Source of the DNA: Escherichia phage T7
Direction: 5' to 3' (one strand)
Length of the DNA stretch: 38,926 nucleotides
Sequence record: MZ375241.1
Part shown: piece by piece, positions 1,279-12,312 of the stretch
How positions within the stretch are numbered: position 1 is the stretch's first letter
Layout of the letters: every line of letters begins with the position of its first letter
Position numbers and translations under genes: made by a program
Notes under the pieces: generated by a model
What the model saw: only the letters and a program-made list of their open reading frames with translations
The model's database searches: none
What the model was told of the DNA's origin: nothing

Positions 1279-1409
1279 TGTCTACTACCAACGTGCAATA
1301 CGGTCTGACCGCTCAAACTGTACTTTTCTATAGCGACATGGGGCGGCGTGGCATAGACGAAAGGAAAAGGTTAAAGCCAAGAAACTCGCCGCACTTGAAC
1401 AGGCACTAG
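1278..1409 (+). pseudogene. 0.4: Gene 0.4 remnant: first ~21 codons of the FtsZ inhibitor gp0.4 fused to a 22-codon non-native tail
   Basis: ATG overlaps the ocr stop (taATG); translation [21 protein letters not shown] then GRRGIDERKRLKPRNSPHLNRH*; junction near 1340/1341. Confidence 0.7.
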
Positions 1410-5911: not shown

Positions 5912-6991
5912 ATGATGAACATTAAGACTAACCCGTTTAAAGCCGTGTCTTTCGTAGAGTCTGCCATTAAGAAGGCTCTGGATAACGCTGGGTATCTTAT
6001 CGCTGAAATCAAGTACGATGGTGTACGCGGGAACATCTGCGTAGACAATACTGCTAACAGTTACTGGCTCTCTCGTGTATCTAAAACGATTCCGGCACTG
6101 GAGCACTTAAACGGGTTTGATGTTCGCTGGAAGCGTCTACTGAACGATGACCGTTGCTTCTACAAAGATGGCTTTATGCTTGATGGGGAACTCATGGTCA
6201 AGGGCGTAGACTTTAACACAGGGTCCGGCCTACTGCGTACCAAATGGACTGACACGAAGAACCAAGAGTTCCATGAAGAGTTATTCGTTGAACCAATCCG
6301 TAAGAAAGATAAAGTTCCCTTTAAGCTGCACACTGGACACCTTCACATAAAACTGTACGCTATCCTCCCGCTGCACATCGTGGAGTCTGGAGAAGACTGT
6401 GATGTCATGACGTTGCTCATGCAGGAACACGTTAAGAACATGCTGCCTCTGCTACAGGAATACTTCCCTGAAATCGAATGGCAAGCGGCTGAATCTTACG
6501 AGGTCTACGATATGGTAGAACTACAGCAACTGTACGAGCAGAAGCGAGCAGAAGGCCATGAGGGTCTCATTGTGAAAGACCCGATGTGTATCTATAAGCG
6601 CGGTAAGAAATCTGGCTGGTGGAAAATGAAACCTGAGAACGAAGCTGACGGTATCATTCAGGGTCTGGTATGGGGTACAAAAGGTCTGGCTAATGAAGGT
6701 AAAGTGATTGGTTTTGAGGTGCTTCTTGAGAGTGGTCGTTTAGTTAACGCCACGAATATCTCTCGCGCCTTAATGGATGAGTTCACTGAGACAGTAAAAG
6801 AGGCCACCCTAAGTCAATGGGGATTCTTTAGCCCATACGGTATTGGCGACAACGATGCTTGTACTATTAACCCTTACGATGGCTGGGCGTGTCAAATTAG
6901 CTACATGGAGGAAACACCTGATGGCTCTTTGCGGCACCCATCGTTCGTAATGTTCCGTGGCACCGAGGACAACCCTCAAGAGAAAATGTAA
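5912..6991 (+). CDS. 1.3: ATP-dependent DNA ligase
   Basis: 359-aa ORF; AEIKYDGVRG adenylation motif (KxDG). Confidence 0.95.
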   Translation: MMNIKTNPFKAVSFVESAIKKALDNAGYLIAEIKYDGVRGNICVDNTANSYWLSRVSKTIPALEHLNGFDVRWKRLLNDDRCFYKDGFMLDGELMVKGVDFNTGSGLLRTKWTDTKNQEFHEELFVEPIRKKDKVPFKLHTGHLHIKLYAILPLHIVESGEDCDVMTLLMQEHVKNMLPLLQEYFPEIEWQAAESYEVYDMVELQQLYEQKRAEGHEGLIVKDPMCIYKRGKKSGWWKMKPENEADGIIQGLVWGTKGLANEGKVIGFEVLLESGRLVNATNISRALMDEFTETVKEATLSQWGFFSPYGIGDNDACTINPYDGWACQISYMEETPDGSLRHPSFVMFRGTEDNPQEKM

Positions 6992-6998
6992 TCACACT

Positions 6999-7030
6999 GG
7001 CTCACCTTCGGGTGGGCCTTTCTGCGTTTA
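6999..7030 (+). terminator. Early terminator TE (host RNAP, rho-independent)
   Basis: ggctcacc-ttcg-ggtgggcc stem-loop followed by tttctgcgttt. Confidence 0.85.
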
Positions 7031-7041
7031 TAAGGAGACAC

Positions 7042-7064
7042 TTTTACGACTCACTAAAGGAGGT
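7042..7064 (+). promoter_or_regulatory. T7 RNAP promoter phi1.5 (+1 at 7059) with altered upstream edge
   Basis: ttttacgactcactaaaggaggt; -17..-14 reads tttt instead of taat; lies at a deletion junction. Confidence 0.7.
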
Positions 7065-7071
7065 ACACACC

Positions 7072-7161
7072 ATGATGTACTTAATGCCATTACTCATCGT
7101 CATTGTAGGATGCCTTGCGCTCCACTGTAGCGATGATGATATGCCAGATGGTCACGCTTAA
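7072..7161 (+). CDS. 1.5: Small hypothetical protein
   Basis: 29-codon ORF after RBS aaggaggt; T7 gene 1.5 position. Confidence 0.7.
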   Translation: MMYLMPLLIVIVGCLALHCSDDDMPDGHA

Positions 7162-7181
7162 TACGACTCACTAAAGGAGAC
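7159..7181 (+). promoter_or_regulatory. T7 RNAP promoter phi1.6 (+1 at 7176)
   Basis: taatacgactcactaaaggagac. Confidence 0.85.
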
Positions 7182-7186
7182 ACTAT

Positions 7187-7447
7187 ATGTTTCGACTTCA
7201 TTACAACAAAAGCGTTAAGAATTTCACGGTTCGCCGTGCTGACCGTTCAATCGTATGTGCGAGCGAGCGCCGAGCTAAGATACCTCTTATTGGTAACACA
7301 GTTCCTTTGGCACCGAGCGTCCACATCATTATCACCCGTGGTGACTTTGAGAAAGCAATAGACAAGAAACGTCCGGTTCTTAGTGTGGCAGTGACCCGCT
7401 TCCCGTTCGTCCGTCTGTTACTCAAACGAATCAAGGAGGTGTTCTGA
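7187..7447 (+). CDS. 1.6: Hypothetical protein
   Basis: 86-aa ORF with RBS aaaggaga. Confidence 0.85.
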
Positions 7448-8029
7448 TGGGACTGTTAGATGGTGAAGCCTGGGAAAAAGAAAACCCGCCAGTACAAGCA
7501 ACTGGGTGTATAGCTTGCTTAGAGAAAGATGACCGTTATCCACACACCTGTAACAAAGGAGCTAACGATATGACCGAACGTGAACAAGAGATGATCATTA
7601 AGTTGATAGACAATAATGAAGGTCGCCCAGATGATTTGAATGGCTGCGGTATTCTCTGCTCCAATGTCCCTTGCCACCTCTGCCCCGCAAATAACGATCA
7701 AAAGATAACCTTAGGTGAAATCCGAGCGATGGACCCACGTAAACCACATCTGAATAAACCTGAGGTAACTCCTACAGATGACCAGCCTTCCGCTGAGACA
7801 ATCGAAGGTGTCACTAAGCCTTCCCACTACATGCTGTTTGACGACATTGAGGCTATCGAAGTGATTGCTCGTTCAATGACCGTTGAGCAGTTCAAGGGAT
7901 ACTGCTTCGGTAACATCTTAAAGTACAGACTACGTGCTGGTAAGAAGTCAGAGTTAGCGTACTTAGAGAAAGACCTAGCGAAAGCAGACTTCTATAAAGA
8001 ACTCTTTGAGAAACATAAGGATAAATGTT

Positions 8030-10442: not shown

Positions 10443-12312
<1,870 letters not shown>

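What the first reader, a model, noticed from the sequence alone, without database searches (positions are those of the whole stretch)
6992..7071. Gene 1.4 is missing as an exact 156-bp block, and the deletion clips the phi1.5 promoter
Only 80 bp separate the ligase stop (6991) from the gene 1.5 ATG (7072), and that interval holds the TE terminator and one promoter. In canonical T7 I expect a 51-codon gene 1.4 here. The 156 bp lost equals gene 1.4 from ATG through stop, with the junction at 7045/7046 directly after the would-be 1.4 RBS (ataaggagacacttt). Because the 1.4 stop overlaps the first bases of phi1.5, the promoter now reads tttt-acgactcactaaagg instead of taat-acgactcactaaagg. A start-to-stop excision with no flanking scar resembles a designed deletion, unlike the two ragged deletions. 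The AT-rich -17..-13 element contributes to T7 RNAP binding, so phi1.5 is probably weakened.
Basis: partly seen in the sequence, partly recalled or inferred. Interest (0 to 1): 0.7.

Follow-up and report, generated by a model that had tools for sequence, protein, structure and literature searches.

The report
Engineered gene 1.4 deletion in T7
This is phage T7 from a published CRISPR genome-reduction experiment, in which gene 1.4 was deliberately cut out from start codon to stop codon; the cut also changed two bases at the edge of the next promoter, so the finding is real but already explained and ordinary.

Summary
Against reference T7 (NC_001604) the window lacks exactly bases 7608-7763. That is gene 1.4 from ATG through TAA, 156 bp, with no microhomology. 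The TAA stop is also positions -17 to -15 of promoter phi1.5. The upstream flank supplies TTT, so the promoter now reads TTTTA instead of TAATA, and only -16 and -15 change (A to T).

The exact junction occurs in 63 GenBank phage records. All are "Mutant Escherichia phage T7 clone T7_nnL/S" records, the clone series described by Yuan et al. (NAR 2022, CiPGr). That study's "cassette-gene" library pairs Cas9 spacers with 50-bp homology arms designed to delete whole genes. Clones from transfers 10 and 20 still carry gene 1.4.

Weakening of the promoter is plausible but untested. Published in vitro mutagenesis gives about 68% activity for each single change, and I infer roughly 15-45% for the pair. 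The clipped promoter persists unchanged in all 63 records. A second engineered gene 1.4 deletion, with a similarly clipped promoter, grows nearly like wild type.

Verdict: already known, low interest.

The parts
5912..6991 (+). Gene 1.3 (ATP-dependent DNA ligase). It is intact, and its last 34 bases lie inside the presumed left homology arm.
   Evidence: 359-aa ORF; matches NC_001604 6475-7554.
6999..7030 (+). E. coli RNA polymerase terminator TE: hairpin at 6999-7018 followed by a U-rich tail. Unchanged from wild type.
   Evidence: Hairpin GGCUCACC/UUCG/GGUGGGCC in the RNA fold. Identical to the reference, where TE is annotated at 7588, which maps to window 7025. The simple consensus scan missed it because the T-run is interrupted.
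7031..7037 (+). Orphan ribosome-binding site of the deleted gene 1.4 (TAAGGAG). No start codon follows it at a usable distance.
   Evidence: Sequence read. The next ATG is gene 1.5 at 7072, 35 nt downstream. The natural 1.4-less relative phiA1122 lacks this RBS as well.
7044..7045 (.). Deletion junction: ref 7607 is joined to ref 7764, removing gene 1.4 (ATG..TAA, 156 bp) with no scar and no microhomology.
   Evidence: The exact 40-bp junction is present in 63 engineered-T7 GenBank records.
7042..7064 (+). T7 RNA polymerase class II promoter phi1.5 (-17 to +6, +1 at 7059). Its AT-rich upstream element is changed from TAATA to TTTTA (-16 A>T, -15 A>T), and bases -14 to +6 are unchanged.
   Evidence: Promoter scan of the window and the reference. 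All 17 natural T7 promoters have A at -15 and 16 of 17 have A at -16; phi4.7 has T.
7072..7161 (+). Gene 1.5 (29 codons). It is intact and keeps its own RBS (GGAGG at 7059-7063).
7159..7181 (+). Promoter phi1.6, intact (TAATACGACTCACTAAAGGAGAC). It is a redundant class II promoter 117 bp downstream of phi1.5.
1340..1341 (.). Junction of the 563-bp early-region deletion (ref 1341-1903; parts of genes 0.4 to 0.6B), with 1 bp of microhomology. This is the undesigned type.
   Evidence: The paper lists gp0.3-0.6 large-fragment losses as not designed.
10534..10535 (.). Junction of the 292-bp deletion inside gene 3.8 (ref 11254-11545), with 0 bp of microhomology. It spares the gene 4A RBS and start codon and is probably a designed, trimmed deletion.
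   Evidence: An identical junction occurs in at least 19 sister clones with different backgrounds.

Best explanation
[quoted passage not shown] 2022. By the accession and naming pattern it is most likely clone T7_50L.

Gene 1.4 was removed by design. Cells carried Cas9, a spacer targeting gene 1.4, and a 100-bp repair template made of the 50 bp before the ATG and the 50 bp after the TAA. Cas9 cut phages that still had the gene, and recombinants that copied the template survived. That produces a scarless ATG-to-TAA excision.

The design followed ORF coordinates. The gene 1.4 stop codon TAA is also positions -17 to -15 of promoter phi1.5, so three promoter bases went with the gene. The upstream flank ends in TTT, which leaves TTTTA in place of TAATA.

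The element stays entirely A/T, and the specificity and initiation regions (-14 to +6) are untouched. phi1.5 should therefore still work, probably at reduced strength. The cost to the phage should be small, because phi1.1A, phi1.1B and phi1.3 upstream and phi1.6 downstream drive the same genes.

Shown here: the deletion boundaries, the promoter sequence change, that the junction occurs only in engineered-clone records, and the published design. Inferred: the exact homology arms, that the GenBank records belong to that paper, the identity of the clone, and the size of any promoter defect.
For: Exact boundaries and zero microhomology.

Provenance: the junction is found in 63 phage records, all 'Mutant Escherichia phage T7 clone T7_nnL/S' or OL9647xx, and in no natural isolate. 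The clone names match the paper's sampling, which took large and small plaques every 10 transfers up to 300. [quoted passage not shown]

Timing: clones T7_10S and the 38,457-bp pair MZ375235/6 still carry gene 1.4, while every listed later record carries the junction.

Recurrence: the same junction sits on several mutually exclusive early-region deletions (offsets; 563 bp against 676 bp). That fits a templated event or recombination, not one random accident.

Design logic: another deletion in the series (gene 5.3) also starts exactly at the ATG. Gene 1.4 contains 13 NGG PAMs.

Contrast with nature: the natural 1.4-less relative phiA1122 joins TE directly to an intact TAATACGACTC promoter and has lost the RBS as well.

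Promoter effect: in vitro RNA/DNA ratios from Komura et al. are wild type 169, -16T 114.5 and -15T 115.7. Variants carrying TTTT plus other changes give 19.6, 15.6 and 2.9. A second study reports that -16A and -15A to T have little effect and that -16 to -14 need only be A-T or T-A.

Tolerance: TTTT is unchanged in all 63 records through transfer 290-300. It is retained even where phi1.5 and phi1.6 have fused into a single promoter. The T7-B chassis, with an analogous gene 1.4 deletion, has wild-type-like plaques and a burst of 197 against 224.
Against: The paper's supplementary tables, which list cassette sequences and accession numbers, are not held. The gene 1.4 homology arms and the link between accessions and the paper therefore rest on clone names and method, not on a printed list. 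The main text never mentions gp1.4. The presumed source record MZ375241 is not in the searchable collection, so the clone's identity is inferred. Other deletions in the series (1.7 and 3.8) are not start-to-stop, so the design rule is not simply 'the whole ORF'. No measurement exists for the -16T/-15T double variant in the phi1.5 context. My 15-45% estimate assumes multiplicative effects and rests on single-barcode readings.
Confidence: 0.93

Rival explanations
1. A spontaneous deletion, either a CRISPR-escape mutation or illegitimate recombination, happened to remove gene 1.4 during passage without using a designed repair template.
For: The same genomes do carry undesigned deletions. One is the 563-bp early-region loss with 1 bp of microhomology, and the paper reports such escape deletions.
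Against: Both endpoints fall on the first base of the ATG and the last base of the TAA, with 0 bp of microhomology. Spontaneous T7 deletions typically use short direct repeats; that is general knowledge and was not tested here. The published library was built to make exactly this kind of product. The junction recurs on different genetic backgrounds.
Confidence: 0.03
2. The window is a natural T7 strain or relative that never had gene 1.4, like Yersinia phage phiA1122.
For: Gene 1.4 is confined to T7 and a few very close relatives: 44 records at megablast sensitivity. phiA1122 lacks it.
Against: The natural 1.4-less arrangement has a different junction, in which the TE tail runs straight into an intact TAATA promoter with no orphan RBS. 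The window's flanks are 100% T7. The junction is found only in records labelled as mutant clones, and early clones of the same series still carry the gene.
Confidence: 0.01
3. The deletion is designed, as in the main explanation, but the clipped phi1.5 is essentially dead rather than merely weakened, and downstream genes depend wholly on read-through and on phi1.6.
For: No natural T7 promoter has T at -15, and only phi4.7 has T at -16. The variants that carry TTTT plus further changes are weak: 2.9 to 19.6 against 169 for wild type. One back-calculation gives a factor of 0.14.
Against: Each single change keeps about 68% activity or has 'little effect'. The element remains 100% A/T, which is what positions -16 to -14 are reported to require. 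The recognition core from -12 to -5 and the start site are intact. In T7_270S the clipped half is the only promoter in front of gene 1.6, and that clone is viable.
Confidence: 0.12

Closest known systems
CiPGr cassette-gene deletion mutants of T7 (Yuan, Shi, Jiang, Ma; Nucleic Acids Res 2022; GenBank MZ375233-MZ375294 and OL9647xx)
   Same: The gene 1.4 deletion junction is identical to the base in 63 records. The 563-bp early deletion matches T7_30L and others, judging by coordinates. The gene 3.8 junction is also identical. Several point mutations are shared with T7_220S.
   Different: Nothing substantive. The window's exact record, presumably MZ375241 / T7_50L, is not in the searchable collection. 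The paper's main text does not comment on the change to phi1.5.
T7-B chassis phage, made by SMART multiplex engineering (mBio 2025, PMC12153263; e.g. PV223881)
   Same: It is an independent, deliberate, seamless deletion of gp1.4 that also removes the upstream edge of phi1.5. The phage grows almost like wild type.
   Different: The deletion is shifted by one base (ref 7609-7764), giving TTTAA rather than TTTTA. It was made by Red/ccdB recombineering in BAC-cloned fragments, and its other deletion junctions differ.
Natural absence of gene 1.4 in Yersinia phage phiA1122
   Same: The order ligase, TE, phi1.5, gene 1.5 is the same, with no gene 1.4.
   Different: The natural junction preserves TAATACGACTC intact and lacks the gene 1.4 RBS. 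The engineered junction keeps the orphan RBS and alters -16 and -15.
T7 promoter saturation mutagenesis (Komura 2018 PMC5937735; Kartje 2020 PMC7948468; Imburgio 2000 and Patwardhan 2009, as cited in those papers)
   Same: These studies cover single A-to-T changes at -16 and -15, which are tolerated.
   Different: The exact double variant was not found in the stored (truncated) Komura supplement, either in the consensus promoter or in the phi1.5 (class II, -2A) context.

Membership tests
CiPGr 'cassette-gene' designed deletion | The deletion endpoints are set by gene coordinates, and the product is scarless because it comes from a homology-directed repair template | tested here: met
   Ref 7608-7763 equals the annotated gene 1.4, with 0 bp of microhomology and no inserted bases.
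CiPGr 'cassette-gene' designed deletion | The junction is shared with deposited clones of that clone series and is absent from the starting phage | tested here: met
   63 records carry the exact 40-bp junction. T7_10S and the 38,457-bp pair MZ375235/6 still have the gene.
CiPGr 'cassette-gene' designed deletion | A synthesized cassette for gp1.4 exists, with 50-bp arms abutting the gene | not testable with these tools
   The supplementary tables are not held. Only the general design is stated in the text.
CiPGr 'cassette-gene' designed deletion | Cas9 target sites (NGG PAMs) lie inside the deleted gene | tested here: met
   13 NGG PAMs in the 156 bp, 9 on the + strand and 4 on the - strand.
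T7 RNA polymerase promoter (class II, phi1.5) | The specificity and unwinding regions (-12 to -1), including the essential CTC at -9 to -7, and the G start are conserved | tested here: met
   Bases -14 to +6 are identical to wild-type phi1.5.
T7 RNA polymerase promoter (class II, phi1.5) | The upstream AT-rich element at -17 to -13 matches the natural pattern (A at -16 and -15) | tested here: not met
   The window has TTTTA. 17 of 17 natural T7 promoters have A at -15 and 16 of 17 have A at -16. It is still all A/T, which mutagenesis reports as the actual requirement.
T7 RNA polymerase promoter (class II, phi1.5) | T7 RNA polymerase initiates at +1 (window 7059) | not testable with these tools
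   This needs run-off transcription or 5'-end mapping.
Spontaneous T7 deletion between short direct repeats | A direct repeat or microhomology at the two breakpoints | tested here: not met
   0 bp at the gene 1.4 junction.
Natural gene-1.4-less teseptimavirus arrangement (phiA1122 type) | The TE tail is fused to an intact TAATA promoter, with no gene 1.4 RBS | tested here: not met
   Alignment.

The most novel reading that the evidence does not exclude
The -16T/-15T change markedly attenuates phi1.5, and this attenuation, or the loss of the small hydrophobic gp1.4, is neutral or even advantageous under passage. If so, its unaltered persistence across 63 clones and about 300 transfers would be an unplanned long-term test showing that phi1.5 is dispensable. 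That includes clones in which it is the only promoter before gene 1.6. The published paper does not discuss this side effect.
Probability: 0.12. Interest if true: 0.25.

Novelty: already known. Interest (0 to 1): 0.08.

Why it matters
It matters little for biology. The deletion is a published, deposited laboratory construct, and gene 1.4 was already classed as non-essential.

The practical lesson is for phage genome design. T7 feature tables mark promoters only by their +1 base, so an ORF-coordinate deletion of gene 1.4 silently removes -17 to -15 of phi1.5. Two independent engineering projects did this. Anyone using these reduced T7 chassis for expression near the 1.4 to 1.6 region should know that phi1.5 is not wild type.

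Tried and rejected
- Looked for gene 1.4 elsewhere in the window by blastn and tblastn. Only chance 10-14-mers turned up.
- Ran the consensus terminator and sigma-70 scan over 6850-7250. It found nothing because TE has an interrupted T-run, so the RNA fold and identity to the reference were used instead.
- Tried to fetch MZ375241, the presumed source record. It is not in the collection.
- Tried to read the CiPGr supplementary tables for the cassette sequences. None are held, and 'gp1.4' does not occur in the main text.
- Searched the Komura supplement for the exact TTTTACGACTCACTATAGG and ...AAAGG variants. They are absent from the stored, truncated file, so only indirect back-calculation was possible.
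- Considered a natural strain polymorphism. Rejected on the phiA1122 comparison and on the junction occurring only in mutant-clone records.
- Considered whether the RNA polymerase Q184R change compensates for the promoter change. I have no evidence for that. The mutation is shared with other clones in the series, and residue 184 lies outside the AT-rich recognition loop (residues about 93-101, from memory, not tested).

Full report
**What is in the sequence**

The window is bacteriophage T7. Gene 1.3 (DNA ligase, 359 aa) occupies 5912-6991 and gene 1.5 starts at 7072, which leaves an 80-bp gap.

A whole-window comparison with the reference T7 genome NC_001604 gives four collinear blocks at 99.6% identity or better, separated by three deletions:
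- Ref 1341-1903: 563 bp, 1 bp of microhomology, covering parts of genes 0.4 to 0.6B.
- Ref 7608-7763: 156 bp, no microhomology.
- Ref 11254-11545: 292 bp inside gene 3.8, no microhomology.

The reference annotates gene 1.4 at exactly 7608..7763. The middle deletion is therefore the ORF from the A of its ATG to the last A of its TAA, and the breakpoints cannot be placed anywhere else. Gene 1.4 is not relocated: blastn and tblastn of the gene and its protein against the window return only chance 10-14-mers.

**What remains in the gap**

The TE terminator hairpin (6999-7018) and its U-rich tail are identical to the reference. The gene 1.4 ribosome-binding site TAAGGAG (7031-7037) is left as an orphan, with no start codon before the gene 1.5 ATG 35 nt away.

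Promoter phi1.5 has its +1 at 7059 and spans 7042-7064. In wild type, the TAA stop of gene 1.4 forms positions -17 to -15 of this promoter. After the deletion those positions are filled by the TTT that preceded the ATG. TAATACGACTCACTAAAGGAGGT becomes TTTTACGACTCACTAAAGGAGGT. Only -16 and -15 change (A to T), -17 is T in both, and -14 to +6 are untouched.

A scan of all T7 promoters shows that A at -15 is invariant (17 of 17). A at -16 is present in 16 of 17, with phi4.7 carrying T. The variant therefore lies outside natural T7 variation, although the element is still entirely A/T.

**Where it comes from**

A 40-bp probe centred on the junction cannot match a genome that still has gene 1.4. 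It hits 63 records in a collection of 50,697 phage genomes, all of them Escherichia phage T7 with no host field. The records opened are titled "Mutant Escherichia phage T7 clone T7_30L", "T7_220S", "T7_270S" and "T7_5t1".

These names fit the sampling in Yuan et al., Nucleic Acids Research 2022 (PMC9825161), which picked large and small plaques every 10 transfers up to 300. That paper describes CiPGr. Each synthesized 200-bp cassette carries a Cas9 spacer and a repair template of two 50-bp arms. [quoted passage not shown]

Clone T7_10S (MZ375234, 39,938 bp) and the 38,457-bp pair MZ375235/6 still carry gene 1.4. Every listed later record carries the junction.

Accessions follow a regular pattern: 233 is 10L, 234 is 10S, and so on to 276 as 220S. 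This was confirmed at three points. The one accession missing from the collection, MZ375241, would be T7_50L. The window is 38,926 bp and carries the T7_30L deletions plus the gene 3.8 deletion, so it is most likely that record. This identification is an inference.

**Why designed rather than accidental**

- Both ends fall on ORF boundaries, with no microhomology and no inserted bases.
- The same junction sits on mutually exclusive early-region deletions: 563 bp here against 676 bp in T7_220S, plus several other offsets.
- Another deletion in the series (gene 5.3) also begins exactly at the ATG and stops 30 nt before the next gene's start.
- Gene 1.4 offers 13 NGG PAMs for Cas9.
- The 563-bp early-region deletion is different in kind. 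It has ragged ends inside genes and corresponds to the "gp0.3-0.6 large fragment" losses that the authors say they did not design.

It stops 19 nt before the gene 4A ATG. It recurs base for base in at least 19 sister clones on different backgrounds. It is probably a designed deletion trimmed to protect gene 4A.

**A useful natural contrast**

Yersinia phage phiA1122 lacks gene 1.4 naturally. There the TE tail (…GCGTTTA) runs straight into ATACGACTCACTAAAGG, so the promoter reads TAATA intact and the gene 1.4 RBS is absent as well. Phage NC-A has a different gene upstream but again an intact TAATACGACTC.

Nature's version of "no gene 1.4" keeps the promoter whole. The window's version keeps the RBS and nicks the promoter, which is the signature of a cut made by ORF coordinates. 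The reference feature table marks each promoter only by its +1 base. That would hide the 3-bp overlap from anyone designing deletions from annotations. This last point is my inference.

**A second, independent example**

PV223881 (T7-B-G) matches the junction with one mismatch. Mapping shows that its deletion is ref 7609-7764, shifted by one base, giving TTTAA. It comes from a 2025 mBio paper (PMC12153263) that deleted gp1.4 "seamlessly" by Red/ccdB recombineering to build a reduced chassis. That chassis, T7-B, has plaques like wild type and a burst size of 197 ± 9 against 224 ± 9.

**Does the promoter suffer?**

No tool here can measure this, so the answer rests on published mutagenesis of the consensus promoter.

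In Komura et al. 2018 (S2 File), the RNA/DNA ratios are:

| Variant | RNA/DNA ratio | Share of wild type |
|---|---|---|
| Wild type (5 barcodes, 142-188) | mean 169 | 100% |
| -16 A>T | 114.5 | 68% |
| -15 A>T | 115.7 | 68% |
| -16 A>G | 22-26 | 13-15% |
| -15 A>G or A>C | about 7 | about 4% |
| -2 T>A (as in class II phi1.5) | 138-161 | 82-95% |

The exact double variant is not in the stored part of the file. Three variants carry TTTT plus other changes:
- With -13G and -2A: 19.6.
- With -13T and -3G: 15.6.
- With -6G and +2A: 2.9.

I divided out the other substitutions using their single- or double-mutant values. That back-calculates factors of roughly 0.26, 0.40 and 0.14 for the TTTT pair. 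The product of the two single effects is 0.46. These figures assume multiplicative effects and rest on single-barcode readings, so I treat "about 15-45% of wild type" as a rough inference.

A second study (Kartje et al. 2020, PMC7948468) reports that positions -16 to -14 need only be A-T or T-A. It also reports that -16A and -15A to T have "little effect", in agreement with Patwardhan et al..

From general knowledge, not tested here: the -17 to -13 element is read through the minor groove by the AT-rich recognition loop of the polymerase. That would explain why A-T to T-A swaps are mild.

The effect is more likely a reduction of a few-fold at most than a loss.

**Consequence for the phage**

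The cost is likely small. phi1.5 is one of several class II promoters (phi1.1A, phi1.1B and phi1.3 upstream, phi1.6 117 bp downstream). From general knowledge, T7 RNA polymerase reads through to the Tphi terminator. The TTTT version is unchanged in all 63 records, with no reversion or compensating change. In T7_270S, phi1.5 and phi1.6 have recombined into one promoter, with loss of gene 1.5, and the clipped upstream half is the one retained.

**Verdict**

The "designed deletion" reading is correct and matches a published method and a deposited clone series. The promoter side effect is real in sequence, is not mentioned in the paper's main text, and is probably mild. This is an already known laboratory construct, not a new biological feature.

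Noticed in passing
window 10506-10556 (junction 10534/10535): The 292-bp gene 3.8 deletion puts the gene 3.8 start codon (10506) in frame with the gene 4A start (10554). Translation from the 3.8 RBS would add 16 residues ([16 protein letters not shown]) to the N-terminus of the primase/helicase. The native 4A RBS and ATG are also still present. The T7_220S record (MZ375276) annotates the long form.
   Followed up: partly
window 405: An A>G change sits exactly at +1 of promoter phiOL and turns its initiation region from AGGAGA into the consensus GGGAGA. It is absent in clone T7_10S but present in both the window and T7_220S, so it spread during passaging.
   Followed up: partly
window 3158 (T7 RNA polymerase codon 184): Q184R in T7 RNA polymerase is shared with T7_220S and absent from T7_10S and the reference. 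Other substitutions with the same distribution are window 162 T>C, gp7.3 T13P, and gp16 K1158R and A1193V. These may be adaptive or hitch-hiking sweeps, and no link to the phi1.5 change is shown.
   Followed up: partly
L012 (MZ375286, T7_270S) 250-300; corresponds to window 7042-7186: In late clones (MZ375286 was aligned; MZ375283 and MZ375290 diverge at the same point) the 21-bp repeats of phi1.5 and phi1.6 have fused. This deletes gene 1.5 (117 bp) and leaves one hybrid promoter that keeps the clipped TTTT upstream half.
   Followed up: yes
L009 (PV223881) 6120-6135: An independent engineered T7 chassis (T7-B) deleted gene 1.4 one base further right (ref 7609-7764), giving TTTAA at phi1.5. 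Those coordinates equal gene 1.4 in the 39,938-bp version of the T7 genome, so this may be a coordinate-system slip.
   Followed up: partly
window 1340/1341: The 563-bp early-region deletion (564 bp relative to the lab's 39,938-bp parent, which has an extra A at 1896) truncates gene 0.4 after codon 21 and removes genes 0.5 and 0.6A and most of 0.6B. Sister clones carry different, mutually exclusive deletions of the same region (676 bp, about 1,480 bp and others).
   Followed up: partly
window 38579 and 38581: Two adjacent substitutions (ref 39590 A>T and 39592 C>G) lie in the right-end non-coding region just downstream of gene 19.5. They are absent in T7_10S. In T7_220S this stretch is deleted.
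   Followed up: no
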